Virus record (IMG/VR): IMGVR_UViG_3300027573_000033
Span: 1-60,103 of that record
Origin: a virus
Lineage: Duplodnaviria > Caudoviricetes
Length of the DNA stretch: 60,103 bases
Direction: 5' to 3' (one strand)
The number at the start of each line of letters is the position of its first letter. Within the stretch, counting starts at the first letter, position 1. Below, in pieces: positions 1-33,043 of the stretch. Below the pieces are notes generated by a model. The model searched no databases. It saw nothing but the letters and a program-made list of their open reading frames with translations, and was not told the DNA's origin. Made by a program: the position numbers and the translations under genes.

Positions 1-127
1 GTGCCGGCGATGGCGTGGAATACCACCAAATTCCCGAACTCACCAGATAAAACATCTTCAGTCGTGTAGGTGCTACTGCGGTCGTCGACCACGCTCGACA
101 GCGTGTAGGACGCAGCGCCGTCCCATA
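1..127. repeat. Exact 127-bp repeat of 59130-59256 (assembly circularisation overlap)
   Basis: Base-by-base identity up to position 127/59256; first mismatch C128 vs T59257. 127 is a common assembler k-mer size. Confidence 0.9.
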
Positions 128-2447
128 CGACAGCACCAACGATTAGGTTCCCGCTTACCACGTTGCCCGGGAGCGTTACCGCGATATTAGGATCGCCGGT
201 AAAGCCTTCTTCGGATATTTCCGATTGCACGAATTCCGGTTGCGTGGCCTCATACAAGCGCGCCTCGACGCCCGCGCCTCCGGTCAATTGCTTGACGCGA
301 TAGCGGACAATGAAGCCTTCGTCGGTGCCGGGATCATCGTAGGTCGGCACGTCGTAGGTGTCGAGCAGGCCCGCGCTAGTGGCGATGACGTACTGTGCGT
401 CCGAAGGTGTCTCCTCGTTGACGCACAGGAAGTTCGGCCCGACGACAGTAGGCCCGGAGGCGCCTTGGGTGGGCGACCCGACGAGCGTCAGAGGGAACGC
501 CCCGACGAGGTCAGGCTCGGGCGAGTCGCTGCCCCCGATGGGCCAGTACGACACAGGGGTGCCCACGGACAGCGGGTTCGCGCCAGCGGCTAACGCTTCT
601 ACTTGTGCTTGCGATAGCGCTTCATTCCATACAGCCCAATGGGCGAGCCGACCGTCCATGTACTCGCTGCCGTCGACCCACCGCGCGAGGTTAACTAGCG
701 CAAGTCCTGATGGAACATTAACCGAATTTGTGCTTGTTCCGCTACTGGCCCATACACCATTCAAAATGGTGCGACGTGTTGTCGCGTTGGTTATGACTAT
801 CGCAACATGGAACCACACGCCCGTGCTTGCAGCATTCGACGTTGCAAAAGCATCCGCCCAAGTACCGCCAGAGCCAACTCCACCGTTAATTATTCCGCTA
901 TCGTTGAGCGCAATAAAATAAGACTCGGTCGGGGCTGTGTCCTCCGTGATTGCGAACAGCGTATCGAACGCACCGCTACCCGGCAGCGCATCCAGCCACA
1001 CCCACCCGGCGATGGTGACGGGATACGCCGTCAGCCCGAGCCCGGTCGACGCGGTCAGGTATTGACTGCTGCCGTTGAAGTCCCTCGACAGTAGTGCCGG
1101 TGAGCGCGTCCACGCCACGCTGCCGTCCGCTTCAGGACGCAGCAATATTCCACCAGAGAGCGGCAGGTCGACGGGCGGGCCGAACGCCCCGGCTGGCGGC
1201 GACGCGATTAGCGTCAGGTCATACGCGCCGACCTCGTCCGGTTCCGGTGATGCAAGACCGGATAGTGGCCAGTACGCGACCGGCGTGCCGACGTTCAGCG
1301 GGTTGTCCCCCGCCGCCAACGCTTCTATCTGTGCCTGCGATAGCGCGCTGTCCCAGATCGCAACATGCGCCGCCTGCCCGTCGGTGTAGTTGTAGTTGTC
1401 GTTGTAAAAGTCAAGTACACCTACAGCGAATACAGTAATATTACCAGGAACGATATTATCAGTTTGTACGCCAGCACTGGCCCACACACCATTAAGGATC
1501 ACGCGACGCGATGAAACACTGGTAGCAATTAACGCAATATGAAACCAAGCACTCGTCCCCACCGTGTTACTGGTAAAGGTACTCTCACCAGACGCTCCCT
1601 GCGTGTAAATACGAAGCGTTCCATTCGTCTGCAATTCCACGTTGTAGAAATGACCATCTACTCCCGATGACAACGCGCAGAGGGTCTGCTGCACCAGCGC
1701 ATCGATACGGAACCACCCACAGATCGTGAACGGCGATGCGCTGACCGGAGCACCACCAGTCTTGACCGCGTATTGACTCGACCCGTTGAAGTCGCGCGAC
1801 GTTTCGACGGCGGGGTTGCTGCCGCCCTGCGGTGGACTACCGCTGAGTGAGAAGTCATAGTTGTTCTTCTCGTCGGGCTCTGGCGATGCGGTGCCCGCCA
1901 GCGGTAAGTAGACGATCAGATCGTTGTTGGCAATCGCAAGCGGGTTGGCTCCGGCCGCGAGCGAATCGTTCTGCGCTTCAGTGAGCGCGATGTCCCACAG
2001 CGCCCAGTGGGCGACCAACCCCTCCATACGCGCCGACAGATTCGCCGTGCTGTCGCCGATGCGCATTTCGGTCGGCTGATTCAACGTGCGCGCCGATCCA
2101 GTGTACGTCCCCGAGTTTGCCCAGTCGCCGTTGAGCACCACGCGCCAGTTCGTACTGCTGGTCGCAATAACAGCGACGTGCGTCCACGCATCTATTGTGA
2201 AAGCGTTGCCTTGGTTCGCCGTCTCCGCCCACGCAGAGCCATTCCAGTGCCGCAGCCGGACATGCTCCGACGCTTGCAGTTCAATAGCCCACTGATCGTT
2301 GTTGGAAATCCACCAGCCACACGCGCTGTTCTGGTCGTTGTTCGCCGCGTTCATCCAGAAGCAGATGGAGAACGGGTAGGCGAGCGTCGGCAGCCCGCTG
2401 GTTTTCTCCAGATGGGCGGCGGTGCCTTCGGCAAACTGACGGCTCAT
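1..2447 (-). CDS. Virion adhesin with three tandem LamG/concanavalin-A-like domains (5' part; continues in frame at 59129-58616 on circularisation, about 986 aa)
   Basis: Not in the ORF track because it has no stop before base 1. Manual translation from ATG 2447 gives MSRQFAEGTAAHLEK..., with three repeats containing W.H[VI]A, R.[VI]L[ND]G.WA and AL.AG.NP...PL.G..SPEPD. The frame runs into the 127-bp overlap with 59130-59256. Confidence 0.85.
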   Translation of the reverse strand, partial: MSRQFAEGTAAHLEKTSGLPTLAYPFSICFWMNAANNDQNSACGWWISNNDQWAIELQASEHVRLRHWNGSAWAETANQGNAFTIDAWTHVAVIATSSTNWRVVLNGDWANSGTYTGSARTLNQPTEMRIGDSTANLSARMEGLVAHWALWDIALTEAQNDSLAAGANPLAIANNDLIVYLPLAGTASPEPDEKNNYDFSLSGSPPQGGSNPAVETSRDFNGSSQYAVKTGGAPVSASPFTICGWFRIDALVQQTLCALSSGVDGHFYNVELQTNGTLRIYTQGASGESTFTSNTVGTSAWFHIALIATSVSSRRVILNGVWASAGVQTDNIVPGNITVFAVGVLDFYNDNYNYTDGQAAHVAIWDSALSQAQIEALAAGDNPLNVGTPVAYWPLSGLASPEPDEVGAYDLTLIASPPAGAFGPPVDLPLSGGILLRPEADGSVAWTRSPALLSRDFNGSSQYLTASTGLGLTAYPVTIAGWVWLDALPGSGAFDTLFAITEDTAPTESYFIALNDSGIINGGVGSGGTWADAFATSNAASTGVWFHVAIVITNATTRRTILNGVWASSGTSTNSVNVPSGLALVNLARWVDGSEYMDGRLAHWAVWNEALSQAQVEALAAGANPLSVGTPVSYWPIGGSDSPEPDLVGAFPLTLVGSPTQGASGPTVVGPNFLCVNEETPSDAQYVIATSAGLLDTYDVPTYDDPGTDEGFIVRYRVKQLTGGAGVEARLYEATQPEFVQSEISEEGFTGDPNIAVTLPGNVVSGNLIVGAVVWDGAASYTLSSVVDDRSSTYTTEDVLSGEFGNLVVFHAIAG

Positions 2448-2827: not shown

Positions 2828-5434
2828 CTAGCTCCTTGTGTGACCGTGGACTTCCATCATGTAGTCGATGTCGGCGTGCACGCCCCACGGCGGCGGCGCG
2901 CCGTCGAAGCCCCAACCGTGATTGCCGCGCGTCAGGTGCAGGCCCTTGTCGCGCCACAGCTTCACGCCGTTGTTGTAGCGCGAGCCGTTGAGCACGGCGT
3001 CGCTGGGCACCACGCCCGACCAGCGCAGCAAGCCTTCTTGCGTGGTGCCGCTGAACATGCTGCCGTGGCCGAAGCCGATGGCGGTGCCGTAGCTCAGCGC
3101 AGCCTCGCCCGAGCAGATCGGCCCGCGTACCGACCGCGCCGGGTGCTTCTGGATGAAGTCGACGTGCTTGATGACGTTCTCGCCCGGCAGGAACAGCAGC
3201 GGCAGGCCGTAGTAGATGTTGCTCCAGGTCATCACGCCGATCATGCCGCGCGGGCCGAACGAGCCATCGCTCAGTGCGATCTTCACGTACCGCGAGTTGT
3301 CGTTGATCTGGTAGGGCGTCTGCAGCGCTACCGCGACGACCTCGGGGCCGAAGGTCACGCTGCCGGTGTTGATCGTTACCGTGCGCTTCTTGATGTTCTT
3401 GGCGCGGATCGACCCGTAGTACAACCACCCGTCCTGGTAGGCGATACCCTCGGGCGCCAGCGTGGCGAACTGCGCGACGATCGCCGCGCCATCGTCAAGC
3501 GACACGACGATCACGCGGTTGTTCCCGGTGTCGGTCACCGCCATGAAGCCTGACGCCTTCTCCACCTCGATGTTGTCGAACGGGCGATTCAGTCCGATGG
3601 CGAACTCCGTCACCACCGGAGGAGTCGCGTGCGACGTCGGGTTGAACTGCAACTTCAGCACGCGGTTGTTGGTCAGGTCAGGCAGGAACACCCGAATGCC
3701 CGCCGCCATGATCGTGCCGTCGCTGTCGGGCCAGCTCGCGTGCGGGTGCAGGTCCTTCTCGGCGGGGATCGTCGGGGCGTTGAGATCGCTGACGAACGCC
3801 CGCGAGTCCCAGCCGATGCCCCACATCCGGCATGCGCCGCGACGCTCGGGCGGTATCGCGTCCCAGTTGCCGACCAGCTCGGGCGCCGCCGGGTTGCCCG
3901 CTACATCGTAGCGGTACGGCGGCGGGTGCGGGTGGCGGAAGCCACACAGCGTGACCACCTTACCGTAGTCGGCGCTGCGGTACTTACCCAGCAGGATTTT
4001 GCCGAAGCGCCAGGTGTCGGTGAAGTACAGGTTGTCGACCGGGCCGTTGAACGGCGGGCTGTTGACGACGGCGGTGCCCCACTCGACGTGCATCAACCCG
4101 GTCAGCGTGCCGCGACCGCGCACGCCGTCGAGCAGCGGCCAGATGGGGACCTTCGCCTCGAAATCGTAGAAGTTGTAGTTCTGCGTGTTGAACGTCGACC
4201 AGATACCCTCGGCGCTCACCACCGGGCGGTGCGGATCGGTCGCGCGGTAGGGGGCGATCTCATCGCACACCAGCATGTCGCGCGAGATGGCGGGCACGCC
4301 GACGATGCTCTGCGTCACCACGTTCGGGTACTCGCGCATCGCCAGCGGCTTCTCGGTCGGCGCGTAGAGCGTCGGCACCCACGCGAACTGGATGTTCCAT
4401 GGACTGCCGGTCGGCTGGTGCATCAGCTCGTAGCTGGCGGTCACCGATGGCATCAGCGCGTGCGGCGGAGCCACCGCGCTCTTGAGGACGAAGACCGCCC
4501 ACCAGCAGCAGTCCCACCCGAAGGCGTCGCCGCCTACCACGTCGGCCTTGTACCAGCCTTCCTCGACCTGCGCCGCGTTGATGCTGAAGTACAGCTCCTT
4601 CTGCGCGGGATCGGTGGTCGCGTTGGCTTGGATCGCCAGCGTGCCGTCGGGTCGCTCCAAGCGCAGCGTCAGCGGCATGGCGGCGCCCCACAGCGGCGCT
4701 CCGCCGCCGCCTGCGAGGTCGCAGGAGAACACCCGCACGCGCAGCGCTCCCGCCGCGTCGGGCTTGACCACGGTGAGGAACTGCGCCCGGTTGTAACGAT
4801 CCGGGCTGGGCATGAACGACGCGACCATGATCAGGCGCGACATGCGCGTCAGCAGGCGCGTCTGCACCACCGGCAGCGTCGGCTCGGGGACGACGACGGG
4901 AACGACCGCGGTGACCTCGTCGGTGTCGCTGACGCCGACCGCGTTAGTCGCCACGACGACGAAGCGCGTGGTGGTGAAGATGTTCTCGGTCCACGGCAAC
5001 GTCACCACGCGGTTGTTGAGCGTGATCGTCGTCGCGTCGGTCACCGTCGCGCTGATACGTGTGGCGCCCCCGCCCGCGGGCAGCGGGTTGGGATCGCAGC
5101 GCAGGTCGGTGATGGTCGGCGCGGGAGGGGCCGCAGCCACATCGACCGACAGCGTCACGCTGGTCGTACCGCCCGGGCCCACCGCGCGCAACACCAACTG
5201 CGTGTCGACCGTCACGGTGAACGGCGGCGTCGGCAACGTGACCGGAGCATCGTTCAAGAACACCGCGTCGGCATACCGGACCGCGGCGTCAACCACCACC
5301 GGCCCACCGCCGTAGGGCAGCGCGCTCGGCGTCACCGTGGCGCTATTGATCTCGGGCGGCGGGTAGACCGACAGCGCCTGCGCGACCGCGAGCGAGGACT
5401 CGATGGCGGCGATGACATCGACCTTGTTGCTCAT
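2828..5434 (-). CDS. Large adhesin-like protein: two N-terminal Ig-like repeats plus an NHL-like beta-propeller (868 aa)
   Basis: Start reassigned to MSNKVDV (ATGA overlap with the upstream ORF). Repeated P..LP.GGG...[IV] Ig-like units; DLTNNRV and DTGNNRV propeller blades. Confidence 0.6.
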   Translation of the reverse strand: MSNKVDVIAAIESSLAVAQALSVYPPPEINSATVTPSALPYGGGPVVVDAAVRYADAVFLNDAPVTLPTPPFTVTVDTQLVLRAVGPGGTTSVTLSVDVAAAPPAPTITDLRCDPNPLPAGGGATRISATVTDATTITLNNRVVTLPWTENIFTTTRFVVVATNAVGVSDTDEVTAVVPVVVPEPTLPVVQTRLLTRMSRLIMVASFMPSPDRYNRAQFLTVVKPDAAGALRVRVFSCDLAGGGGAPLWGAAMPLTLRLERPDGTLAIQANATTDPAQKELYFSINAAQVEEGWYKADVVGGDAFGWDCCWWAVFVLKSAVAPPHALMPSVTASYELMHQPTGSPWNIQFAWVPTLYAPTEKPLAMREYPNVVTQSIVGVPAISRDMLVCDEIAPYRATDPHRPVVSAEGIWSTFNTQNYNFYDFEAKVPIWPLLDGVRGRGTLTGLMHVEWGTAVVNSPPFNGPVDNLYFTDTWRFGKILLGKYRSADYGKVVTLCGFRHPHPPPYRYDVAGNPAAPELVGNWDAIPPERRGACRMWGIGWDSRAFVSDLNAPTIPAEKDLHPHASWPDSDGTIMAAGIRVFLPDLTNNRVLKLQFNPTSHATPPVVTEFAIGLNRPFDNIEVEKASGFMAVTDTGNNRVIVVSLDDGAAIVAQFATLAPEGIAYQDGWLYYGSIRAKNIKKRTVTINTGSVTFGPEVVAVALQTPYQINDNSRYVKIALSDGSFGPRGMIGVMTWSNIYYGLPLLFLPGENVIKHVDFIQKHPARSVRGPICSGEAALSYGTAIGFGHGSMFSGTTQEGLLRWSGVVPSDAVLNGSRYNNGVKLWRDKGLHLTRGNHGWGFDGAPPPWGVHADIDYMMEVHGHTRS

Positions 5435-7207: not shown

Positions 7208-8572
7208 TCAGACTCCTGGTGATTTATTGGACATCGCTTTCGCCTTCTGCGCCGCTATGGCCTCTGTCCGGGCCTTTTCAACCGATGCTATCTCCTCGTC
7301 GTCCTCGCGATCGACGGGGATTATGTCGCCGCGACGCATGTTGAACACCAGCGTCTCGGCGGAGATGCCGCCCTCGAGGTAGGACTTGACCAGGTCGACC
7401 AGGTCGTTCGCCGGCATCCTCGTCTCGAGGAACTCCTTGTTCAGGAGGATCGTGACCTCGTCGGGATCCTCGCCCCTCATCAGGGCGACGTTCCTGTACG
7501 CCTGCGTCAGGCCGGCCTCCGTGGCGCGAACGACCATCGCCAGGGACGCCGTCTCGGACGCGTACCTGAGCCTGACTGTGTCCGCGGCCTCGGAACCGCG
7601 CTTGGAGTTGTCCAGGAGCCTCGCCGAGAGGCTCGCCAGCTGCCCCTGTTTCTCCTGGAGGGCCTTCTCGAGCGACTGGAGCCCCTGACCCGTAAATTCG
7701 AGGTACTGGGCCCTAGCGTTCGAGTCGGGGAGGATCCAGGCTGTCTGACTGCCGACCCGGAGCTCCGATGTGGCCTCCGCTCCCGACACGACCGGCGTCG
7801 GGAGCGCCGTGAAGTGCCGGCCGTGCTCCAGGTCCGCCGATGTGCGATAGTGGGACAGGTTTATGTCCACGATATCGAGCATCGGCGCCTTGTGCATCTC
7901 GAAGCTCACACCGTAGGGCGTTATCGGCGTGAACGGGATCCAGTTCATCGGCCTGCCCTCGATGGTCGGGACCGTCGACGACAGGACGTTCCTCTTATCG
8001 TCGAAGACCGTGACCGAGTACAGCTCGCCGTTCAGGGACAGTTCGCGATACTGGGTGACCGCCACCTTCTCGTAGCGATCCTTGGGGTCCGGCACCAGGA
8101 CGGCCTCCCTCAGCACAACCATCGTCGGCGCCCCGAGCTGGTCCGTCTCCCAGTTAATGATCGACTCGGCGTTGTACGTCGTCAGGTACGGGTCACCGCC
8201 GTCTCTCGGCATGTCGGCCAGCACGCCGACCCTCGCCATCAGGAGGTTCTCGGATAGGGACTTCGCCAGGACCTCGTAGAACTGGATCCCGCTCTCGTCC
8301 TTGTAGTACCCGGACATCGAATCCGGCATCTTCACGATCGGGGATCGCACCATCGCCATGCCGACCAGCGCGGACACCGTCTTGTTAGTGATCGAGAAGA
8401 ACAGCGCCCGGTCCCGGTACGCGTTATACTCGTCCATCGTCTGCTTGGTCAGGGCCGGCAGGTACCTCACGCCCTTCGACTTCACGGCGTCCTGCCCGTC
8501 GTAGGCGTCGCGACACCGCTCCCACTTACTCACAAAATCCGTATAGTTCGGATGCAGGCTATCGATCGGCAT
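7208..8572 (-). CDS. Portal protein (DUF4055-like)
   Basis: 454 aa after terL; G.DAVK..G..YLP, Y.AY..RA.F, INLSHYRTSAD motifs. Confidence 0.85.
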   Translation of the reverse strand: MPIDSLHPNYTDFVSKWERCRDAYDGQDAVKSKGVRYLPALTKQTMDEYNAYRDRALFFSITNKTVSALVGMAMVRSPIVKMPDSMSGYYKDESGIQFYEVLAKSLSENLLMARVGVLADMPRDGGDPYLTTYNAESIINWETDQLGAPTMVVLREAVLVPDPKDRYEKVAVTQYRELSLNGELYSVTVFDDKRNVLSSTVPTIEGRPMNWIPFTPITPYGVSFEMHKAPMLDIVDINLSHYRTSADLEHGRHFTALPTPVVSGAEATSELRVGSQTAWILPDSNARAQYLEFTGQGLQSLEKALQEKQGQLASLSARLLDNSKRGSEAADTVRLRYASETASLAMVVRATEAGLTQAYRNVALMRGEDPDEVTILLNKEFLETRMPANDLVDLVKSYLEGGISAETLVFNMRRGDIIPVDREDDEEIASVEKARTEAIAAQKAKAMSNKSPGV

Positions 8573-8573: not shown

Positions 8574-9986
8574 TCAGAACCCCACGACCTTCGCCAGCTT
8601 GGCGGAGTGGGTCGCCTTTAGCACGCGGTACCTGATCACGTCCCAGAGGTGGTCCTCCCCGGCCGTGTCGATGTCCTCCTCGTCCTTATCGTCCCGCTCG
8701 AGGTTCGGCACCGTGCGGATGGTGTGATAGCACGTGTTGAACACGTAGTACCCCGGCTGGTCCACGCCCTTCCGGGCGGCGTCCAGGCGCTGTCTCATGA
8801 CCGCGCACCCGAGCACCCGGCTCCCCGGCGACTTATCCGCCTTCGTGAACGTGATCCCCTCCTTCGCCATGTCGTCCGCGATCGACGGGTGGCCCGGCAC
8901 CTTGGAGAATATCGAGTTATCCGCCGGCCCGCTCATCGCCCGGCCGAACAGCCCCTCGTCCACCTCCGTCATCCTGATCCGGCGCGCCTGCTCGCGCGCC
9001 GCCAGCCTGAGCCCCTCGTGCCTCTTGTTCGCCAGGTACAGCTCGGCGCACTGCACGATCGTCCCCCTCGGGAACCATATCGCCCGGCCGTCCCCGGTGA
9101 CGTGCTCCTCGCCGTCGCTCTCCGCGAACCAGCATGCTGCGGCCGGCGCGGACGACCCGTAGTCGTACCCCCTATCGACCTTCCACGTGTGCGGGATCTC
9201 GAACGGCTCGATCACGTGGAACTTCGGCTCCCAGACGTCGCTGAACATGCCGCCGCTGATGAGCCCCCAGTCCCCGTTCAGCATCGCCTCGACCAGGGCG
9301 CCCGACCCCAGGCCCTTGACGCGCTGGGCGTACTCCGGGTCGTTCTGCAGGAGCACCTTGTTATCGTGCAACTTCGCCCCGACGTACTCCCGGAGCATCC
9401 CGCCCTCGTCCTCGGGCGCCCGGAACGTGTTCCCCTGCCCGTGATCCACCCACCCGGACTTGAAGAAGTGATGCCCCACGCCCCCGGGGTTCGCCGTGTA
9501 CAGTATCCGCGGGAACAGCCCCCTCCACTTATCCGGCACCTTCAGGGAGCCGAGCCGGACGCGAGATCGGAGGAACCTGACCATATCCGGGGTGAAGTGC
9601 GTCGCCTCGTCGATGCAGAGGAGCCCGATCTGCGCCCCCTGGTGCTGGTATATGTCGCTCTCGTACTGCGAGTGCGCCAGCTGGATCCTGGAGCCGTTCC
9701 AGAAGTTGAACGAGTTATCGCTCTTGCTGTACGTGACGTCCCCGGAGTCCAGGAGCGAGTGCAGCATCTCGAGGTAGCCGCCCGGCGTATATATGTGATT
9801 CGCCAGGACCTCCTTGAACGTCCTCCGGAACAGGTACGTGATCAGCCCCGGGATCTCCGCGCTGAAAACGATCGAGGCGACGCGCACCAGGTAGCTCTTG
9901 CCCCCGCCCAGCGCTCCGCCGTACAGGATCTCGGTCGCCGGGGTCATCAGGGCCCGCCGCTGCTGCGGGTACAGGCTGAACTCCAA
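8574..9986 (-). CDS. terL: Terminase large subunit
   Basis: Walker A YGGALGGGKS, Walker B LCIDEAT, TANPGG coupling motif, C-terminal nuclease GYDYG...EDHLWD. Confidence 0.95.
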   Translation of the reverse strand: MEFSLYPQQRRALMTPATEILYGGALGGGKSYLVRVASIVFSAEIPGLITYLFRRTFKEVLANHIYTPGGYLEMLHSLLDSGDVTYSKSDNSFNFWNGSRIQLAHSQYESDIYQHQGAQIGLLCIDEATHFTPDMVRFLRSRVRLGSLKVPDKWRGLFPRILYTANPGGVGHHFFKSGWVDHGQGNTFRAPEDEGGMLREYVGAKLHDNKVLLQNDPEYAQRVKGLGSGALVEAMLNGDWGLISGGMFSDVWEPKFHVIEPFEIPHTWKVDRGYDYGSSAPAAACWFAESDGEEHVTGDGRAIWFPRGTIVQCAELYLANKRHEGLRLAAREQARRIRMTEVDEGLFGRAMSGPADNSIFSKVPGHPSIADDMAKEGITFTKADKSPGSRVLGCAVMRQRLDAARKGVDQPGYYVFNTCYHTIRTVPNLERDDKDEEDIDTAGEDHLWDVIRYRVLKATHSAKLAKVVGF

Positions 9987-10678: not shown

Positions 10679-11050
10679 TTACCTCTCAGTCGGAACTGCC
10701 GTTATGTCGATGACGTTAGCGAGTCGGGCCCCGCCCGGCTGCGCCATTTCGGGGATGGCCGGCGGATCGGATTCGCCGTCCTCCCTCACCTCCCTGAAGA
10801 GCGAGACCTCGATGGTCCGGCGCTCCCTCAGGTTATCCTTGATCTCTATCGCCTTGAGCTCCGGCTCGACGTACTTGAGGACGGTGGCGTGGGCGCGAAG
10901 GGCGAGCTCGCTGTCCTGAGCGTCCTCCGCCGCGTGGGCGATGCGCGCGATTGATACGATGGGGTGGTACTCGGGGTGCTGGCGACGCAGCATGTCGAGG
11001 AGGCGCTCCCCGTTATGCTTGAACACCCTTTCGATGACCGGCTGTGACAT
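10679..11050 (-). CDS. terS: Terminase small subunit (putative)
   Basis: 123 aa upstream of terL; C-terminal KYVEPELKAIE motif typical of small terminases; has its own promoter. Confidence 0.65.
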   Translation of the reverse strand: MSQPVIERVFKHNGERLLDMLRRQHPEYHPIVSIARIAHAAEDAQDSELALRAHATVLKYVEPELKAIEIKDNLRERRTIEVSLFREVREDGESDPPAIPEMAQPGGARLANVIDITAVPTER

Positions 11051-11059
11051 CGTAAGACG

Positions 11060-11090
11060 ATTATAACACGTTCTTTACTACCTGTGTTAA
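11060..11090 (-). promoter_or_regulatory. Sigma70-like promoter of the packaging operon
   Basis: TGT-TATAAT extended -10 at 11065-11060, TTAACA upstream, ATG 9 nt downstream. Confidence 0.55.
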
Positions 11091-11120
11091 CAACGATCCT
11101 GGATCCATGATTAGGGGCAT

Positions 11121-11192
11121 ACTTCATAAGTTGTTGTTTTATATAGGTATTTATAGCGCACCTAGGGAGTTCAAAAAGTAAGTTCATATATG
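11121..11192 (-). repeat. 72-bp dispersed element, copy A, with IHF-like site
   Basis: Aligns without gaps to 24789-24860 and 36571-36642; ends AAACAACAACTTATGAAGT. Confidence 0.75.
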
Positions 11193-11456
11193 GATACTAG
11201 CTAGGCTGGCCGGAACTGACCTGCCATCAGTAGGAGCGCTCCGGTGCGCATAGTGTGTCATACCCTACTGTTAGTTCTGACAGTTCTTGGGAGGACGTAA
11301 CACGCATCAAGCCCCAAGCACTACGCCCGACGCATTTCGCCCCCTCGGCCGACGGGCCAGGCAGTTGCACACAAAGTCGTCCCCGTCGAAAAAATGCCCC
11401 CGGAACTGGGTCGTATACCACCCAGGATAAGGGCCCCATGCATCGATCGTTTCGTG

Positions 11457-11476
11457 TGAGAATGATTATCATTTCT
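11457..11476. promoter_or_regulatory. Fur box, left
   Basis: TGAGAAT-G-ATTATCA is 13/14 to the 7-1-7 Fur inverted repeat TGATAAT-N-ATTATCA. Confidence 0.7.
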
Positions 11477-11693
11477 AATAGTACATTATTTTAGTCAAGT
11501 ATATGGGTTTATAATAATAGTACATTATTTTAGTCAAGTATTTACGTTTACGTAATAGTACATTATTTTAGTCAAGTATTTATGTTTACATAATAGTACA
11601 TTATTTTAGTCAAGTATTTATGTTTACATAATAGTACATTATTTTAGTCAAGTATTTATGTTTACATAATAGTACATTATTTTAGTCAAGTAT
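11476..11693. repeat. Six tandem 38-39-bp units, each with an IscR/Rrf2-type operator
   Basis: Invariant 27-bp core TAATAGTACATTATTTTAGTCAAGTAT at 11476, 11515, 11553, 11591, 11629 and 11667. Its 25-mer matches ATASYYGACTRWWWYAGTCRRSTAT at 22/25. Confidence 0.85.
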
Positions 11694-11714
11694 ATTGATT
11701 TACTTATTACTAAT

Positions 11715-11734
11715 GAGAATGATAATCATTATCA
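11715..11734. promoter_or_regulatory. Fur box, right
   Basis: GAGAATGATAATCATTATC is 18/19 to GATAATGATAATCATTATC; perfect TGATAAT-C-ATTATCA at 11720-11734. Confidence 0.85.
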
Positions 11735-11746
11735 TCGATCGATAAA

Positions 11747-11777
11747 ATAATAGCTGACTAAATTAGTCAGCTATTAT
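11747..11777. promoter_or_regulatory. Perfect palindrome equal to the IscR type-1 consensus; may double as terminator of the 51-aa ORF
   Basis: ATAGCTGACTAAATTAGTCAGCTAT (11750-11774) matches ATASYYGACTRWWWYAGTCRRSTAT at 25/25; 15-bp arms. Confidence 0.8.
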
Positions 11778-11802
11778 GTAAATGAATTTATGTGATATGG
11801 TA

Positions 11803-11958
11803 TTATGAATACATTATACCATATATGATTCGAGAATCGATGATATTTTCGATTTCGTTTAAGTGTTCTTGTGCGATACTGGCTTGTTCGTGTGTGTCGT
11901 ACTTTTCGATTTCGAGTTGATCGGAATCTGATGTGATGAAAATTAAAAAGTATTTCAT
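11803..11958 (-). CDS. 51-aa acidic protein in the AT-rich island
   Basis: MKYFLIFITSDSDQLEIEKYDTHEQASIAQEHLNEIENIIDSRIIYGIMYS; promoter upstream and hairpin downstream. Confidence 0.6.
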   Translation of the reverse strand: MKYFLIFITSDSDQLEIEKYDTHEQASIAQEHLNEIENIIDSRIIYGIMYS

Positions 11959-11999
11959 GATATGATATGTGTTTTATGTGACAAGATTGTCACATTACG

Positions 12000-12094
12000 A
12001 TTATATCACGAAAATCATAAAATCGTAAATACTTTATAGTTATATCGCATATAACGAAAAAGTATTTTACATTTCCGCGAATTTACGATATTAT
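12000..12094. promoter_or_regulatory. Divergent sigma70 promoters flanking an interrupted palindrome
   Basis: Minus strand TTTACG-N18-TATAAT (12029-12000); plus strand TTTACA-N17-TATTAT (12066-12094); AATACTTT...GTTATAT-CGC-ATATAAC...AAAGTATT at 12028-12066. Confidence 0.55.
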
Positions 12095-12173
12095 CCGAGC
12101 GACAGTTTCGCATTTCTAAAAATATGTAAATATGAATATAGTAATTTTCGCATTTCTAAAAACGTTATTTTTC

Positions 12174-12232
12174 GTTACAATTTGTTACACTTAAAATGTG
12201 TACATTTTTTTAATTTTGCATTATTATATAAT
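12174..12232 (+). promoter_or_regulatory. Promoter of HTH paralogue 1 with a GTTACA-N4-GTTACA direct repeat
   Basis: TGTACA-N17-TATTAT; same upstream layout as 13521-13574. Confidence 0.6.
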
Positions 12233-12384
12233 TGTGAATTAAATAAATAAGCTTAAATAAATGTTTAATTCATAATTGGCAAAGTTGCTCTTTAAAAACT
12301 TGGAACAAATTTTTCCGCCGGAAATTTCCGTGCCAGGAATAGTTTTTTCCGCGGAAAAAAGCGTTCCTAAATAGCGAGGTAAAT

Positions 12385-12729
12385 ATGAATACCGAAAGCA
12401 CCGTTCAGGAACTGGCAGTAAAGGTCGAAGGCATGATCGAAGGTCTGCCGGAGAGCGCAAAGGTACACGAACTGACCGCGAAGTTGAACGAGGTCATCGC
12501 GCACCTGAACAAGATGCCGAAGGCAAGGGATCGTGGGCCGGAGAGCTCGCGGACGATGGTCGAGGAAGACGCCAAGAGGATCTGCCTCGGGGATCTCGCA
12601 ACTCTCAGTCACACGAAGGCCGCCGAGGCGTTGGGACTCAGCTACGGACAGGTTTACTCGGCCCGTAAGGGGTTCACGTTCAAGGCAGTCTACAAGGAGG
12701 CAGTGAAGGCCGGAAAGATCAGGGACTGA
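12385..12729 (+). CDS. HTH DNA-binding protein, paralogue 1
   Basis: GAGG RBS; LSHTKAAEALGLSYGQVYSARKGFTF helix-turn-helix pattern. Confidence 0.75.
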   Translation: MNTESTVQELAVKVEGMIEGLPESAKVHELTAKLNEVIAHLNKMPKARDRGPESSRTMVEEDAKRICLGDLATLSHTKAAEALGLSYGQVYSARKGFTFKAVYKEAVKAGKIRD

Positions 12730-12798: not shown

Positions 12799-12981
12799 AT
12801 GTACATCGGAAGAGGCACGAAGCGCGCCTACCGGGAGTGGCTGAGGGACATGGTCATGGACTCGGTCGGCAACGAGGAGCGGTCGGTCACGACCGCGGTC
12901 CTGGAGAAGCTCAAGAGGAACACCCGCCCGGCATCGCCGGACCGCGAGGACCTGAGGCCCTGGAGGACGAGCAATGAATGA
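12799..12981 (+). CDS. Hypothetical protein
   Basis: 60 aa, GAGGG RBS, overlaps the next ORF. Confidence 0.55.
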   Translation: MYIGRGTKRAYREWLRDMVMDSVGNEERSVTTAVLEKLKRNTRPASPDREDLRPWRTSNE

Positions 12982-13174
12982 CCATGACAGCTGGCCGAGG
13001 TGCGTGTGCGGACACATCGCGCAGGCGCACAATGTGCGACGCGGCGAGGAGCCGCGGAACTACGGTTGCGATCAGTGTCAGTGTCCCGGATACCGCTACC
13101 CGGATCATACGGACCCCGAGCTGATCGCCAGGCTCGAGGCCCGGAGGAATAGGGCGCTAGGGATCGAGTCATGA
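12974..13174 (+). CDS. Small Cys/His zinc-binding protein
   Basis: CVCGH...H...C..C.C pattern. Confidence 0.65.
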   Translation: MNDHDSWPRCVCGHIAQAHNVRRGEEPRNYGCDQCQCPGYRYPDHTDPELIARLEARRNRALGIES

Positions 13175-13574: not shown

Positions 13575-13623
13575 TAAAAATGTGAGCAGGCAATCCCGCC
13601 TCTCACGAAACGAGGAGTTCAGA

Positions 13624-13944
13624 ATGGACCACACCACGGAAATCGCCGAATCCCCCGCCCTCAAGGCCCTCGACCCCCACGCGAAGCTGCCGGAGGTCGT
13701 GGCGGCCCTGAACGCGGTCATCGCGCGGCTCAACGCCCGCCGCGACCGCGGGCCCGAGTCCACCCGGGTCATGACGGAGGCCGACGCCAGGGCGATCAGC
13801 CTGGGCGAGCAGCGGGCCCTGTCCCACACGAAGGCGGCCGAGGCCCTGGGGCTCTCCTACGGGCAGGTCTACTCGGCCCGCAAGGGGTTCACCTTCAAGG
13901 CCGTGTACAAGGAGGCCGTGAAGGCGGGCCTCACCAAGGAGTAG
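13624..13944 (+). CDS. HTH DNA-binding protein, paralogue 2
   Basis: GAGGAG RBS; 37 C-terminal residues identical to paralogue 1. Confidence 0.75.
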   Translation: MDHTTEIAESPALKALDPHAKLPEVVAALNAVIARLNARRDRGPESTRVMTEADARAISLGEQRALSHTKAAEALGLSYGQVYSARKGFTFKAVYKEAVKAGLTKE

Positions 13945-22298: not shown

Positions 22299-24755
22299 GT
22301 GTTCAATGCAGAGCTTGCGCTGAAATTTTCGCGCATCGGGTTCTTTATCTTCCCGCTGTATAGAAGCACTAGCACGGATAGGCCATGGGTCGAGGCGAAA
22401 GGCTGGAACCGATTTCCCGGGGGACTGCCCTCGGATGGCCGCATAGAGCCCGAAAAGGGCGAGGTCCCGGCCACATCCGACGAAAGCTCCATCCGACAGT
22501 GGGCGAACAGCGCCGTCACGGTCGGATACGGGATCTGCGCGCCGTTTAACCTGATCTTCGACCTTGACGTCAAGCACGGCAAGAACGGGGTCACGGAGTT
22601 TACGGACATAAAGGCGCGATTCGGGGTCCCGAATCCGTCACTGATAGTCAAGACCAAGTCAGGCGGGCTCCACCTGTACTACGCTCGCGAGCCGGACCTG
22701 GTGCCCGCCAAGGTCGGCAAGGCCACAGACCTGCGAATCGATCAGCGGATCCACGCCGGGGTGGACCTGATCGCCAATTCCGGCTACGTCGTAGGTCCCG
22801 CCCATGAGGGCACCAAGGACGATTGGGCCGAGGGGCGATACACGCTGATCAAGGCGAACTTCGACGCCCTGACCGTGTGCCCGACAGAGGTGTACCGGGG
22901 CCAGATTCGCACCACGGCCGCCGATCGAGTGGTGGCCAGATCCACCACGGCCGATGAGCTGATCGTCAACGCCTACCAGAGCGAGGACGATGACCTGATG
23001 GGGCTGATACGGGCGGGTAAGGTGCCCGAGAAGATCCCGGCCGGCAGGAGGGACAGCCTCCTGACGTCCCTGATCGGCGTCCTAAAGGCTAGGCGACTGC
23101 CTAGGGACACGGTCCGCATGGTGTGTGATAAGTTCCTAGAGAACTGCGAGCTGGCCATCGGCGAGACTCGCGAGCAGTTCCTGAAGGCCATAGGTCTGGA
23201 CAGCAAGTTATCGCGGTTTTACTCCGTGCCGGGGGACGTGAACGATCCCCGCGTGGTGGCGAGGGAGCTGGTGGATATCGGCAAGTGCTTCAAGCTAGTG
23301 GATCAGCTGCCCGGGGCCGTGGCGTTCATAGCCATGGCCGATAACGGGTACCTGTCGCCCAGGATCATCTATACGGAGACCAAGGCCCGCCAGGACCTAG
23401 CTCCGTTCGCCAGGCCGATACCGGATTCGGAGAATAAGAGGCCCGTGAATCCGCTGGATCTCGTGATGAGGGACTCCTCCATGCCCCGGGTGCACAGCAC
23501 GGGGTACATCCCTAAGCCGGTCATGGCGTACATAGACCCGGCCGACGGTACCGAGAGGGTCAACCTGTACGTGCCACCACAGATCCCGATAGGGTGCCGT
23601 AACCCGTCCGGCGTGGTGCAGAGGTACGAGGACCTGGTGTACGAGATCTGCGGTGATATGACCGATTACTTCCTCGATTTCATGGCCCACGTAGTGCAAC
23701 GGCCTTGGATCAAGATGGGCCAGGCGCTCCTGATCATATCTCACGCGCACGGGTCCGGCAAGAACACCCTGGTGCAGGTGATGAAGCCCCTGATAGGCCC
23801 CAAGAACTACCTCCCGGTGTCGGGGCTGTCCCCGCTGGTCGAGGACAAATCCGTGGTCATGGACTGTAACGTGTTAGTGGTGTTCAACGAGGTGTCCAGG
23901 CCGGCCAACCGCAATGCCTGGACCGACATGTCCAGGGCGGTGAACAAGCTGAAGACGGCCATATCGGAGTCCTCGGCGCAGATCAACCCGAAGTACGAGC
24001 GACAGCGCACCATAACCACGTACTCCAACTTCGTGATGCTATCCAACGACGATTGCCCCTATGACCTCGATCAGGGGGACCGTCGCATAGCGGTGGTGAA
24101 CAATGACCCGCCGAAGCTGGACCAGGCCAAGTTCGGCCCGGTCGCCGATTTTGCCCATAACGAGAAGAACATGCGACTCACCCCTCGCGAGTACGAGGAC
24201 ATGGTCTTCGAGTTCAACGAGTTCTTCCGGGCCCGAAAGGTCTCACACAATCTCACCACGGCCGACGCGCCGATGGGCGAGGCGAAGCGGGCCATGCTCA
24301 CGTCGATGGCCTCGCCCATCGCCCAGGCCCTGCGAGACTTCAGGATGGTGAAGAGCGCCGGCACCGACGGGCGGTTCATCAGCGAGGACATGATCATCTA
24401 CATCCTCCGCCACCGGTTGGGGTTCAAGGAGTTCGGTAAGGATCGTGGGCGGTACGACATATTCGAGCAGTTTGTGGACAATGGCATCGTGCACAGGCTG
24501 GGGCAAAAAGGAAACCAGAAGAAGGCTCGAGTCATCGTAGGTCTCCCCGCCCTGCGTGACAGGGAGGATTCCCCGCTCATCGGCCCGATCCGGCCGCTCG
24601 ACGGGCCCAGCAAGACCTTCGTCTGGGCCGACCAGGGACTGCTCCTGCACGATATTTCGGACGCCGCCGTCAGGGACGAGCTGTGGACCGCCAGCTCGCG
24701 CCTCCGGGACCCTAACCCGACCGGAAAGTCGGACGTCCTCAGCATAATCAAATGA
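22299..24755 (+). CDS. Bifunctional primase-polymerase fused to an SF3 helicase
   Basis: AEP motifs DLDVK and TKSGGLHLYY; Walker A HGSGKNT; VFNEV; MLSN. Confidence 0.9.
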   Translation: MFNAELALKFSRIGFFIFPLYRSTSTDRPWVEAKGWNRFPGGLPSDGRIEPEKGEVPATSDESSIRQWANSAVTVGYGICAPFNLIFDLDVKHGKNGVTEFTDIKARFGVPNPSLIVKTKSGGLHLYYAREPDLVPAKVGKATDLRIDQRIHAGVDLIANSGYVVGPAHEGTKDDWAEGRYTLIKANFDALTVCPTEVYRGQIRTTAADRVVARSTTADELIVNAYQSEDDDLMGLIRAGKVPEKIPAGRRDSLLTSLIGVLKARRLPRDTVRMVCDKFLENCELAIGETREQFLKAIGLDSKLSRFYSVPGDVNDPRVVARELVDIGKCFKLVDQLPGAVAFIAMADNGYLSPRIIYTETKARQDLAPFARPIPDSENKRPVNPLDLVMRDSSMPRVHSTGYIPKPVMAYIDPADGTERVNLYVPPQIPIGCRNPSGVVQRYEDLVYEICGDMTDYFLDFMAHVVQRPWIKMGQALLIISHAHGSGKNTLVQVMKPLIGPKNYLPVSGLSPLVEDKSVVMDCNVLVVFNEVSRPANRNAWTDMSRAVNKLKTAISESSAQINPKYERQRTITTYSNFVMLSNDDCPYDLDQGDRRIAVVNNDPPKLDQAKFGPVADFAHNEKNMRLTPREYEDMVFEFNEFFRARKVSHNLTTADAPMGEAKRAMLTSMASPIAQALRDFRMVKSAGTDGRFISEDMIIYILRHRLGFKEFGKDRGRYDIFEQFVDNGIVHRLGQKGNQKKARVIVGLPALRDREDSPLIGPIRPLDGPSKTFVWADQGLLLHDISDAAVRDELWTASSRLRDPNPTGKSDVLSIIK

Positions 24756-27163: not shown

Positions 27164-27861
27164 TGGCCAAATCCATCGCGCTAAGTCATAGCCGCCTAAG
27201 CACGTACAACCAGTGCCCTAGGAAGTTTAAGCTCCAGTTCCTGGATAAGGCCTTCCCTCAGGAGGACGCCGACAAGAGCCCGCACCTAGTGCGCGGTAAC
27301 AACGTTCATAAGGCGCTGGAGGGGTACGTGGTTAAGCGCCTGTCCGGGCAGAATGACATACAGCCCTCGTCCCTGAAGGAGGTCGAGACCACCAAGCCGC
27401 TGATCGATCGCCTGTTTCAGGAGTTCGACATGATCATGCCAGAGGCGCAGGTGGCCGTCGATAGCGAGTACAAGAAGGTGGAGTGGTTCGACTCCAACGC
27501 GTACTATCGCGTGATCATGGACATCATCGGCAAGGGAGATAGCACGGCCTTCGTGGGCGACTACAAGACGGGCAAGATCAACGACTACAGCGGATACGGC
27601 GGTCAGCTGCACCTGACCGCGGCCATCACGTTCTGCGTATTCGAGGACGTGCAGGACGTGACGGCGGCCTACCTGTATGTGGATCACCAGAAGGTGAATA
27701 AGATCAAGTTCCACCGGTCCGAGCTGCCGGCCCTGATCCAGCACTTCGACGCGGAGCACGTCAAGGTGAACTCTGACAAGGAGTTCAAGCCGGTGCCCAA
27801 CGACTTCTGCAAGTGGTGCCCAGCCACCAAGGCTCAGTGCCCGTACTCGAGGAAGATCTGA
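27163..27861 (+). CDS. PD-(D/E)XK Cas4/RecB-like exonuclease with a four-Cys (Fe-S) motif
   Basis: S.S......QCPR, RG..VH, DYKTGK, QL, C-terminal CKWCP....C. Confidence 0.9.
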   Translation: MAKSIALSHSRLSTYNQCPRKFKLQFLDKAFPQEDADKSPHLVRGNNVHKALEGYVVKRLSGQNDIQPSSLKEVETTKPLIDRLFQEFDMIMPEAQVAVDSEYKKVEWFDSNAYYRVIMDIIGKGDSTAFVGDYKTGKINDYSGYGGQLHLTAAITFCVFEDVQDVTAAYLYVDHQKVNKIKFHRSELPALIQHFDAEHVKVNSDKEFKPVPNDFCKWCPATKAQCPYSRKI

Positions 27862-30440: not shown

Positions 30441-30464
30441 TGTCAACCGTGAGGACCTCACAGT

Positions 30465-31334: not shown

Positions 31335-31343
31335 TGTCATATA

Positions 31344-33042: not shown

Positions 33043-33043
33043 A

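What the first reader, a model, noticed from the sequence alone, without database searches (positions are those of the whole stretch)
11441..11777. Array of seven IscR operators with two Fur boxes: candidate DNA decoy or sensor for host iron and Fe-S regulators
Seen: in a GC-rich genome, a non-coding AT island reads CATCGATCG, Fur box (11457-11471), six copies of ATAGTACATTATTTTAGTCAAGTAT at a 38-39 bp period, Fur box (11715-11733), CATCGATCG, then the perfect palindrome ATAGCTGACTAAATTAGTCAGCTAT (11750-11774). Established: the IscR type-1 consensus is ATASYYGACTRWWWYAGTCRRSTAT (palindrome 25/25, repeats 22/25). The Fur consensus is GATAATGATAATCATTATC (right box 18/19). Holo-IscR represses Fe-S assembly genes and Fe-Fur represses iron uptake. 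No iron gene lies next to the array. Inference: as the genome replicates, these sites titrate IscR and Fur and derepress host Fe-S assembly and iron import without any phage protein. This would serve the four-Cys exonuclease, the iron-binding carbamoyltransferase and host dNTP supply. Alternatively the array gates neighbouring phage promoters by iron status. I know of no described phage system like this, but could not search.
Basis: partly seen in the sequence, partly recalled or inferred. Interest (0 to 1): 0.92.

Follow-up and report, generated by a model that had tools for sequence, protein, structure and literature searches.

The report
Phage array of iron-regulator binding sites
A virus of bacteria carries, in its main control region, a row of near-perfect docking sites for the host's two iron-sensing gene regulators, and related viruses carry similar rows, which suggests that these viruses read or manipulate the iron status of the cell they infect.

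Summary
Six exact 25-bp repeats (11478-11693, period 39/38 bp), a 25/25 IscR type-1 palindrome (11750-11774) and an 18/19 Fur box (11715-11733) lie in a 20-30% GC divergent intergenic island of a 62% GC, Xp15-like, apparently virulent siphophage. None of 9000 composition-matched simulations reached these matches. The left 'Fur box' is weak (15/19), and the CATCGATCG pair is not significant alone.

The phage encodes no Rrf2 or Fur protein. The array is one case of a clade-wide module. I examined 44 loci that carry the same small HTH gene beside the island. Fur boxes occur in 16 (54 sites, against 0 for the reversed pattern), IscR-like sites in 4 (15 against 0) and tandem CRP cores in 1. They often form tandem arrays, including a 54-bp Fur+IscR unit repeated 3-4 times.

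In bacterial genomes, 41 of 80 perfect consensus sites lie just upstream of an iscR-like gene.

My best reading (0.42) is a cis-acting iron and Fe-S sensor on the flanking phage promoters. Phage-protein iterons are less likely (0.12). No binding or expression data exist, the host is unknown, and the phage probably hypermodifies cytosine.

The parts
10679..11050 (-). First conserved gene of the leftward packaging/structural operon (homologue of Xp15 gp03). TerL is 8574-9986 and portal is 7208-8572.
   Evidence: The GC1/2/3 pattern is coding. tblastx matches Xp15 1708-1941 and L044 3543-3800. TerL and portal were found by PHROGs.
11389..11440 (-). Clade-conserved GC-rich element directly left of the array. 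It begins GGGGCCC on the - strand and forms a hairpin followed by a U6 run (terminator- or attenuator-like).
   Evidence: Fold of 11370-11480 on the - strand. The element is conserved in 13 rows. In Effie, HHU4, L151 and L152 it is preceded by TTTAC(T/A)-17 nt-TATAAT-7 nt. No Rfam family matches.
11441..11449 (+). CATCGATCG, left copy (contains GATC and the ATCGAT and CGATCG palindromes).
   Evidence: There are two copies in the window, which is not significant alone (1.37 expected).
11458..11476 (-). Left, weak Fur-like box AGAAATGATAATCATTCTC (15/19).
   Evidence: 4 mismatches, chance-level alone. It is a 17-nt 94% copy of the right box and one arm of a 27-nt inverted repeat with 224 nt between the arms (D4, I4).
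11478..11693 (+). Six exact 25-bp IscR type-1-like repeats (22/25). The right half-site is perfect and the left half is degenerate. Each is preceded by TTTACATA.
   Evidence: k-mer depth of contigs in two other samples is about 2-5 times that of the flanks.
11699..11726 (+). Candidate rightward sigma-70 promoter TTTACT-16 nt-GATAAT (9/12). Its -10 lies inside the right Fur box.
   Evidence: Promoter-like hits in the region are at chance level overall (8 found, 6.2 +/- 2.5 expected), so this is only a candidate.
11715..11733 (+). Right, strong Fur box GAGAATGATAATCATTATC (18/19).
11733..11741 (+). CATCGATCG, right copy.
11747..11777 (.). Perfect 15-1-15 palindrome. Its core 11750-11774 matches the IscR type-1 consensus 25/25. 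With its flank it is an inverted copy of the repeat unit.
   Evidence: 0 mismatches. (I11 is 100% complementary; I1-I3 are 79% to the repeat units).
11803..11958 (-). AT-rich 51-codon ORF (MKYF...), uncertain gene with no clear ribosome-binding site. Promoter-like sites lie at 12029-12000 and 11984-11957 (-).
   Evidence: No PHROG match.
12385..12729 (+). Small HTH protein (114 aa) divergent from the packaging operon. A paralogue lies at 13582-13944. It is the marker gene of the clade that carries the arrays.
   Evidence: Only weak HTH_23, HTH_28 and Sigma70_r4_2 hits. The model has pLDDT 85 and no significant PDB fold match; the weak top matches are ECF sigma region 4 and LuxR-type HTH.

Best explanation
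The array is a cluster of high-affinity operators for two host regulators that report iron status. These are holo-IscR (six half-perfect sites and one perfect type-1 site) and Fe-Fur (one strong and one weak box). It sits in the AT-rich divergent control region between the late packaging operon and a rightward operon that starts with a small HTH protein. I read it as a cis-acting sensor. Occupancy by Fur and IscR sets the activity of the phage promoters that flank the array. A rightward promoter has its -10 under the right Fur box, with the perfect IscR palindrome about 17-41 nt downstream of its start. The leftward leader begins at GGGGCCC next to the left box. Phage transcription would thus be coupled to the iron and Fe-S state of the host. 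Control could act by occlusion or roadblock. Alternatively, the bound regulators could keep the very AT-rich DNA free of silencing nucleoid proteins. The sign of the response is not known. Shown: the sequence matches, their significance, the absence of phage Rrf2/Fur genes, and the recurrence in relatives and in unrelated phages. Inferred: binding by the host proteins, the promoters, and the effect on transcription.
For: (1) The matches are far beyond chance.
(2) The window has no Rrf2 or FUR gene in six frames.
(3) In bacteria the same perfect consensus marks iscR. 41 of 80 examined sites lie within 400 nt upstream of an ORF that starts like IscR (MKLTSKGRYAVTAMLD...), and 33 of these 41 lie 30-59 nt upstream. 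Natural operators share the phage half-site TTTTAGTCAAGTAT.
(4) Clade recurrence. I examined 44 loci (42 HTH-gene loci, the window and L044; 366,441 bp). Fur boxes at <=3 mismatches occur in 16 (54 sites). IscR-like sites at <=3 mismatches occur in 4 (15 sites). Reversed-pattern controls give 0 in all cases. All 4 IscR loci also have Fur boxes.
(5) L125 and L126 repeat a 54-bp unit of one Fur site plus one IscR-like site 3.2 and 4.2 times. L128 repeats a Fur box 5.4 times. L044 has >=7 Fur clusters, two of them 19/19.
(6) Position. In 6 of 6 leader-bearing loci with Fur boxes (window, L123, L125, L126, L128, L129), the boxes abut the conserved leader. Effie, HHU4, L151 and L152 have a consensus sigma-70 promoter at exactly that place.
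(7) In unrelated phages, perfect IscR sites sit next to promoters. All 8 sites of a 167-kb phage lie 22-34 nt upstream of a TATAAT-like hexamer, read by eye. 0 of 10 such records encode Rrf2 or the HTH family.
(8) The consensus gives 17 stretches in 2.9 million viral contigs, against 0 for its reversal.
(9) In two other samples the contigs show no differences over 11410-11543 and 11664-12204, while 11279-11350 has diverged.
Against: Six to seven sites are more than a promoter normally needs. The units are identical, which points to recent amplification and to selection on copy number. Promoter-like hits in the island are at chance level (8 against 6.2 +/- 2.5). I found no convincing leftward sigma-70 promoter at the left Fur box. 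The six repeats have a degenerate left half-site, so affinity for an IscR dimer is uncertain. The phage carries the gene set of the 5-carbamoyloxymethylcytosine pathway, and modified C in GACT/AGTC and ATC could hinder binding. The host is unknown; the closest named phage is Xanthomonas phage Xp15. Xp15 itself and Acinetobacter phages Effie and HHU4 lack such arrays. There are no binding or expression data.
Confidence: 0.42

Rival explanations
1. DNA sponge. As the genome replicates, the arrays sequester Fur and IscR and derepress host iron uptake and Fe-S assembly. In relatives the arrays would sequester CRP or other regulators. Any effect on phage promoters is secondary.
For: Consensus-grade sites are amplified in tandem, with copy number differing between near-identical contigs (L125 3.2 copies, L126 4.2). 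Fur and IscR sites are co-amplified as one unit. Array periods of 18, 27, 29, 35, 38, 44 and 54 bp show no common helical phase, as expected for independent sites. The phage sites are closer to consensus (88-100%) than the footprinted P. aeruginosa iscR sites (68% and 76%; passages of PMC3899308 and PMC6599224). No integrase was found, and the phage has its own replication genes, so high copy number is likely. Synthetic decoy arrays do titrate regulators (search listings and abstracts of PMC7826281 and PMC3322331). The Fur titration assay works on the same principle (recalled).
Against: The arrays always sit at one place, next to the leader and promoters. A pure sponge could sit anywhere. This window has only one strong Fur box. 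Titrating an activator such as CRP has no obvious benefit. Cytosine modification may lower affinity. There are no host transcriptome data.
Confidence: 0.27
2. Binding sites of a phage protein. The direct repeats plus one inverted repeat would be iterons and an operator of a replication origin, or sites for the neighbouring HTH protein or a terminase subunit. They would resemble IscR and Fur sites only by convergence.
For: Six direct repeats plus one palindrome built from the same half-site, in an AT-rich island, is the layout of iteron origins (recalled). A small HTH gene lies beside the island in every relative. The cumulative GC-skew minimum (8-20 kb) includes the island. The terminase genes are 1.5 kb away.
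Against: A 25/25 match to IscR together with an 18/19 match to Fur was reached in 0 of 9000 simulations. The HTH recognition segment is nearly invariant across 44 proteins although array units differ completely (Fur, Fur+IscR, CRP, unknown). This invariance is partly due to how the loci were found. The HTH family is absent from 10 unrelated phage records that carry perfect IscR sites. The primase-helicase is 10 kb away. 38 bp is 3.6 helical turns. No ParB was found. The skew minimum is broad and follows gene orientation.
Confidence: 0.12
3. Protein landing pad with a physical role. Abundant host DNA-binding proteins would load on the first DNA to enter the cell, or at a packaging site, to help DNA entry, end protection or terminase assembly. 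Which regulator is used would not matter.
For: Array units are very diverse among relatives, including sites of different global regulators. The location is near the head of the packaging operon. In Xp15 the island lies 0.8-1.7 kb from the start of the record.
Against: Genome ends are unknown. Many contig ends near the HTH gene coincide with tandem arrays, which break assemblies. Only contigs, not raw reads, were available for end mapping. All 4 IscR loci also carry Fur boxes, so two iron-related regulators are used together, which argues for a signal rather than mere bulk.
Confidence: 0.08

Closest known systems
Tandem IscR type-1 operators of iscR promoters (E. coli; P. aeruginosa sites A and B)
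   Same: Same 25-bp dyad consensus, with adjacent multiple sites upstream of and over a promoter (passages of PMC6599224 and PMC3899308). Perfect consensus sites in 41 of 80 bacterial loci precede an iscR-like gene.
   Different: Here there are seven sites, six of them exact copies with only one good half-site. No isc, suf or other Fe-S gene is nearby, and the sites lie in a phage that has no Rrf2 gene.
Fur boxes of iron-repressed promoters, including the Fur-controlled stx1 promoter of Shiga-toxin prophages (recalled) and the Fur titration assay (recalled)
   Same: The 19-bp consensus is matched 18/19. A -10-like hexamer lies inside the box. Multicopy Fur boxes are known to titrate Fur.
   Different: No iron-uptake or toxin gene is controlled. 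In relatives the boxes are amplified into tandem arrays of up to 5.4 units or 7 clusters.
Host-regulator boxes in phage control regions (LexA boxes; NtcA and PhoB boxes of cyanophages; all recalled)
   Same: A phage without the regulator carries the host regulator's operator and so reads host physiology.
   Different: Those cases have single sites at single promoters. Here there are tandem arrays, several regulators, and a hypervariable module at a fixed place in a clade.
Iteron origins with an inverted-repeat operator (pPS10, F, R6K type; recalled)
   Same: Direct repeats plus one palindrome made of the same half-site, in AT-rich DNA.
   Different: No adjacent initiator gene. The period is 38 bp rather than about 22 bp. 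The sequence equals host regulator consensus sites.
Synthetic transcription-factor decoy arrays (PMC7826281, PMC3322331, PMC8599769; search listings and abstracts only)
   Same: Tandem consensus sites that can sequester a regulator.
   Different: Those are engineered or theoretical. My searches found no natural phage example.
Upstream Fur sites of E. coli ftnA that relieve H-NS silencing (recalled)
   Same: Several Fur sites upstream of a promoter in AT-rich DNA that act positively.
   Different: That is a host gene with single copies of different sites. A silencing role is untested here.

Membership tests
IscR type-1 operator | 25-bp dyad ATASYYGACTRWWWYAGTCRRSTAT | tested here: met
   The palindrome is 25/25 and the six repeats are 22/25. 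0 of 9000 simulations reach <=3 mismatches.
IscR type-1 operator | Both half-sites present (a dimer site) | tested here: inconclusive
   Met for the palindrome. The six repeats keep a perfect right half but lose G7, C9 and Y6 of the left half. Relatives show the same asymmetry, with TACT in place of GACT.
IscR type-1 operator | Lies at the promoter of a gene of the IscR regulon | tested here: not met
   Neighbouring genes are phage packaging genes and a small HTH protein. There is no Fe-S gene.
IscR type-1 operator | Bound by [2Fe-2S]-IscR of the host | not testable with these tools
   Needs EMSA, footprinting or ChIP. The host is not identified.
Fur box | 19-bp consensus GATAATGATAATCATTATC | tested here: met
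   The right box is 18/19. The left box is 15/19, which is chance-level alone.
Fur box | Overlaps the core promoter it represses | tested here: inconclusive
   A TTTACT-16-GATAAT candidate overlaps the right box, but such hits are at chance level in this AT-rich DNA. In relatives, Fur boxes replace a consensus promoter next to the leader.
Iteron replication origin | Direct repeats next to the gene of the initiator that binds them, phased by whole helical turns | tested here: not met
   The primase-helicase is at 22299-24755. The adjacent HTH family is nearly invariant in its recognition segment while array units differ. The period is 38 bp.
Partition (centromere-like) site | A ParB or other centromere-binding protein gene in the genome | tested here: not met
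   No ParB_N and no tyrosine integrase. ParA was not searched.
cos/pac packaging site | Genome termini or terminase cleavage at or next to the repeats | not tested
   Only contigs, not raw reads, were available. The record has no terminal repeats.
Natural transcription-factor decoy (sponge) | Sites change the free regulator level and the host regulon without acting on a neighbouring promoter | not testable with these tools
   Needs titration reporters and host RNA-seq.

The most novel reading that the evidence does not exclude
A clade of virulent Xp15-like siphophages carries a hypervariable cassette of tandem, consensus-grade operators for host global regulators. The regulators are Fur, IscR and CRP, and probably others behind the unidentified arrays. 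The cassette would act as a protein-free DNA sponge. As genomes replicate it would drain these regulators and rewire host iron, Fe-S and carbon regulons. Array type and copy number would evolve quickly to fit each host.
Probability: 0.27. Interest if true: 0.93.

Novelty: new variant of a known kind. Interest (0 to 1): 0.8.

Why it matters
Phages are known to read host state through single operator sites and to neutralise host DNA-binding proteins with proteins that mimic DNA. A fixed, fast-evolving slot in a phage control region that collects tandem consensus operators for host global regulators would be a new regulatory device, whether it senses or sequesters. Here the regulators are Fur and IscR; in relatives they are Fur alone or CRP. 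The device would tie lytic development in groundwater and sediment phages to iron and Fe-S status. It would also give a sequence-only handle on host physiology and perhaps on host identity. If the sponge reading holds, it would be the first natural DNA decoy used by a virus against bacterial regulators. The idea can be tested directly with standard titration reporters and footprints.

Tried and rejected
- Megablast and blastn of the island and its flanks against the phage collection gave nothing. The same was true for a segment of the 167-kb phage.
- Rfam and tRNA scans of the island found nothing.
- The exact 25-mer repeat is absent from viral contigs (the window's own record may be left out of that scan).
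- TerL relatives at <=50% identity (L009-L014, L039-L043, L045-L118) show no AT island and no Fur or IscR sites. The module is therefore confined to the closer clade.
- The Xp15 island has the same layout, with 27-nt inverted arms 225 nt apart against 224 nt here. Its best Fur match has 6 mismatches and its best IscR match has 7, which is chance level.
- A GGAAC...TTTTCC motif near the HTH start, considered as the HTH protein's own operator, is not clade-wide: 9 of 43 loci, with 12 hits against 8 control hits.
- GC skew is inconclusive for an origin.
- The HTH fold search gave no match at E <= 0.001.
- The idea of a MITE-like insertion (9-bp direct repeats plus inverted arms) was dropped. The arms are not terminal, and Xp15 shares the spacing.
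- A synthetic-construct origin was considered because of the ClaI and PvuI sites. It was dropped because the stretch occurs in 21 DNA runs listed under 21 different study codes.
- Laying contigs: the two RNA-library runs covered only 12299-12528 and 12808-13000. They gave no cover of the array or leader, which says nothing about expression.
- The tandem half-site scan gave 4 stretches. One is a porin coding repeat, one is an 11-bp simple repeat in a giant-virus bin, and two (L284 and L286, the same phage) have three direct IscR-like repeats.
- Supplements of papers were closed and were not consulted. Supplementary Table 1 of PMC4506495 (Fur boxes) might refine the consensus.
- The host was not identified.
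Full report
**What the window is.** The 60103-bp window is a whole IMG/VR virus record that CheckV rates as complete. Its GC content is 62%. The closest named phage is Xanthomonas phage Xp15, genus Alachuavirus. The portal is 52% identical at the protein level and TerL is about 66% identical by tblastx. The phage has its own replication genes: a PrimPol-helicase, a family A polymerase, a PD-(D/E)XK nuclease, an SNF2 helicase and a ligase. I found no tyrosine integrase and no ParB, so it looks virulent. The host is not known.

**The observation.** Third-position GC analysis shows that 11051-12384 is a divergent intergenic island. The packaging and structural operon runs to the left: the gp03-like gene at 10679-11050, TerL at 8574-9986 and the portal at 7208-8572. 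A small operon runs to the right and begins with a 114-aa HTH protein at 12385-12729. The island has 20-33% GC.

Inside it are six exact copies of a 25-mer at 11478-11693, spaced 39, 38, 38, 38 and 38 bp. Each is 22/25 to the IscR type-1 consensus. A perfect palindrome at 11750-11774 is 25/25 (7 matches, none in 100 shuffles). I checked the consensus in passages of PMC3899308 and PMC6599224.

The right Fur box (11715-11733) is 18/19. I checked the Fur consensus in a passage of PMC4506495. AT-rich DNA favours AT-rich motifs, so I simulated 9000 sequences of 1334 bp from three island-like backgrounds. None reached Fur <=1 mismatch or IscR <=3 mismatches.

Two details of the finding are weaker. 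The left box (11458-11476) is 15/19, a level reached by chance in 2.4-4.0% of the simulations. It matters only as a 94% copy of the right box. The CATCGATCG pair is not significant alone. Contigs of 21 DNA runs from groundwater, freshwater sediment, sediment and soil hold the stretch, so it is a real, widespread phage.

**Is it a phage protein's site or a host protein's site?** The window has no Rrf2 or FUR domain in any frame.

I examined 80 sites. Of these, 41 lie within 400 nt upstream of an ORF that begins like IscR, and 33 of the 41 lie 30-59 nt upstream. I did not examine what lies beside the other 39. Natural operators such as ATACCCGACTATTTTAGTCAAGTAT share the right half of the phage repeat letter for letter.

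The same consensus occurs in 17 stretches of 2.9 million viral contigs, and its reversal in none. Those phages are unrelated to this one in the stretches compared. None of the 10 records tested encodes Rrf2 or the HTH family. Many of these sites sit just upstream of strong early-type promoters (GTGTACA-16/17 nt-TATAAT). By eye, this holds for all 8 sites of a 167-kb phage. A binder common to many hosts, namely IscR, explains this best.

**The clade.** The small HTH gene beside the island is conserved in Xp15 (gp02) and in the metagenome relative L044. It served to fetch 42 further loci from viral contigs. Around this gene the DNA is full of tandem arrays whose units differ completely from phage to phage.

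I counted sites over 44 loci (366,441 bp; near-identical pairs such as L125/L126 and L128/L129 were not removed), each with a reversed-pattern control:
- Fur boxes at <=3 mismatches: 54 sites in 16 loci, control 0.
- IscR-like sites at <=3 mismatches: 15 sites in 4 loci (window, L123, L125, L126), control 0.
- Exact CRP cores (TGTGA-N6-TCACA, a recalled motif): 5 tandem sites in 1 locus (L149), control 0.

All 4 IscR loci also have Fur boxes. Some examples:
- L126 repeats a 54-bp unit 4.2 times. The unit holds a Fur dimer site (GATAATGATTATCA) and an IscR-like site (ATTCTCTACTATTTTAGTCAACTAT). L125 has 3.2 copies.
- L128 repeats a Fur box 5.4 times at 35 bp.
- L044 has at least 7 Fur clusters, two of them 19/19, interspersed with promoters of small AT-rich ORFs.
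- L123 has three Fur boxes, then IscR-like repeats, then another Fur box and a site with 1 mismatch.

The cultured members examined, Xp15, Effie and HHU4, lack arrays. Twenty-eight of the 44 loci have neither Fur nor IscR sites at these thresholds. Many of them have arrays of unknown units. An apparently separate phage (L284/L286) has three direct IscR-like repeats with the same asymmetry.

**The HTH protein is a poor candidate for the binder.** Its recognition segment LSYGQ(V/I)YSAR.G.TF is almost invariant across 44 proteins, whatever the array type. Part of this invariance comes from the search patterns. It has no PHROG and only weak HTH or sigma-70 region 4 Pfam hits. A confident model (pLDDT 85) has no significant PDB fold match. 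The weak top matches are ECF sigma region 4 and LuxR-type HTH domains.

**Where the arrays sit.** Directly left of the array lies a clade-conserved GC-rich element. Read on the strand of the late operon, it starts with GGGGCCC and folds into a hairpin followed by a U-run (11440 down to 11389). In Effie, HHU4, L151 and L152 a consensus promoter, TTTAC(T/A)-17 nt-TATAAT, ends 7 nt before GGGGCCC. The element is therefore the start of a leftward transcript with an early terminator or attenuator. In the Fur-positive members with this element (window, L123, L125, L126, L128, L129; 6 of 6), Fur boxes occupy that promoter position.

On the other side, the scan finds TTTACT-16 nt-GATAAT at 11699-11726, with its -10 inside the strong Fur box. 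The perfect palindrome then lies about 17-41 nt after the predicted start. These promoter calls are weak evidence, since the region has 8 promoter-like hits against 6.2 +/- 2.5 expected.

**Mechanism.** I commit to a cis-acting sensor at 0.42. Fe-Fur and holo-IscR would occupy the cassette and set the output of the two divergent promoters. They could do so by occlusion and roadblock, or by keeping this extremely AT-rich DNA free of silencing nucleoid proteins. The sign of the response is open.

The sponge reading (0.27) explains several features better. These are the amplification, the identical units, the copy-number difference between L125 and L126, the absence of a common helical phase (periods from 18 to 54 bp) and the consensus-grade sites. 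It explains the fixed position less well. Both could be true together.

Phage-protein iterons or an origin (0.12) would need an improbable coincidence with two host consensus motifs. They also lack an adjacent initiator gene. A physical landing-pad role (0.08) cannot be tested without mapped termini.

**A caveat for every host-protein reading.** The phage carries a carbamoyltransferase (31384-33042), a thymidylate-synthase homologue (33965-34789), a MazG-like pyrophosphohydrolase and a small kinase. This gene set was linked to 5-carbamoyloxymethylcytosine in DNA (passages of PMC8670742). If the phage's cytosines are modified, the few C and G positions of the sites (GACT/AGTC, ATC) carry bulky groups. 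This could also explain why DNA that host proteins must read is kept so poor in C.

**Variation.** In two other samples the contigs are identical over 11410-11543 and 11664-12204. One of them differs at 15 positions, plus indels, within 11279-11350. The k-mer depth of the array pieces is about 2-5 times that of the flanks, as expected for a multi-copy array.

**Literature.** Five full-text searches found no description of natural phage arrays of host-regulator operators or of phage DNA decoys. Synthetic decoy arrays appear in the search listings and abstracts (PMC7826281, PMC3322331, PMC8599769). The library lacks most subscription journals, and supplements were closed, so absence from print is not proven.

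**Verdict.** The operator identity is well supported by sequence statistics and comparison. The function, sensor or sponge, is open and directly testable.

Noticed in passing
window 30054-34789: The gene set comprises a carbamoyltransferase (31384-33042), a MazG-like pyrophosphohydrolase (33044-33439), a small P-loop kinase (33441-33968) and a thymidylate-synthase homologue (33965-34789). It matches the set reported for 5-carbamoyloxymethylcytosine DNA modification (PMC8670742), so the phage probably hypermodifies cytosine.
   Followed up: partly
window 11389-11440 (- strand); Effie L281 about 4235-4300; HHU4 L282 about 1445-1510; L151, L152: A clade-conserved element GGGGCCC...CCAGTTYCGGGG(A/C)ATTTTT forms a hairpin plus U-run. 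In four relatives a consensus sigma-70 promoter ends 7 nt before it. It looks like a promoter-proximal terminator or attenuator at the head of the late operon. No Rfam family matches.
   Followed up: partly
window 12385-12729 and 13582-13944; 42 loci L119-L160: A new small protein family with an N-terminal coiled coil, the motif RDRGPxSxRxMTxxDA, and a C-terminal HTH with LGLSYGQVYSARKGFTF. It is always beside the array region and has two paralogues here and in L044. It has no Pfam or PHROG family and only weak likeness to sigma region 4 and LuxR-type HTH domains.
   Followed up: partly
L149:95-239; L134:1-118; L131:4108-4208; L124:5449-5629; L140:9882-10502: Relatives carry other tandem arrays. 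Examples are five perfect CRP cores (TGTGAAATTTTTCACA, 29-bp period), five copies of the palindrome ATCCTAATATTAGGAT, 19-bp and 16-bp units of unknown meaning, and three different arrays side by side in L140.
   Followed up: partly
G004 (167-kb phage): L035:420, L036:732-9182: Eight IscR type-1-like palindromes (0-3 mismatches) each sit just upstream of a GTGTAC(A/G)...GGAAATT...TATAAT promoter. This looks like a promoter class with an IscR-like upstream element, in a phage with no Rrf2 gene.
   Followed up: partly
L284:3239-3287 and L286:2042-2096: Another phage contig pair (56% GC) has three direct repeats ATACCCCTACTTTTTAGTCAAGTAT. The IscR right half is perfect and the left half is shifted (TACT).
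   Followed up: no
window 3-2447 (-) and 58616-60103 (-): One ORF runs off the left end without a stop and another is open at the right end on the same strand. The record may be a circle or a permuted genome cut inside one very large gene.
   Followed up: no
window 11279-11350: Hot spot of variation between samples: 15 substitutions and several indels in run X16, while the array flanks are identical.
   Followed up: no
window 27091-27861: The PD-(D/E)XK nuclease has Cys42 and a C-terminal CxxCx6C, the four-cysteine pattern of Fe-S nucleases of the Cas4/AddB type (pattern recalled).
   Followed up: partly
L044:760-1030 and 2747-2762: At least ten copies of TTACCGACTTGACATAA, partly in tandem at 36- and 22-bp periods between Fur boxes. 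The motif shares the core ACTTGAC with this window's repeat read on the - strand, but has more than 6 mismatches to the IscR consensus.
   Followed up: partly
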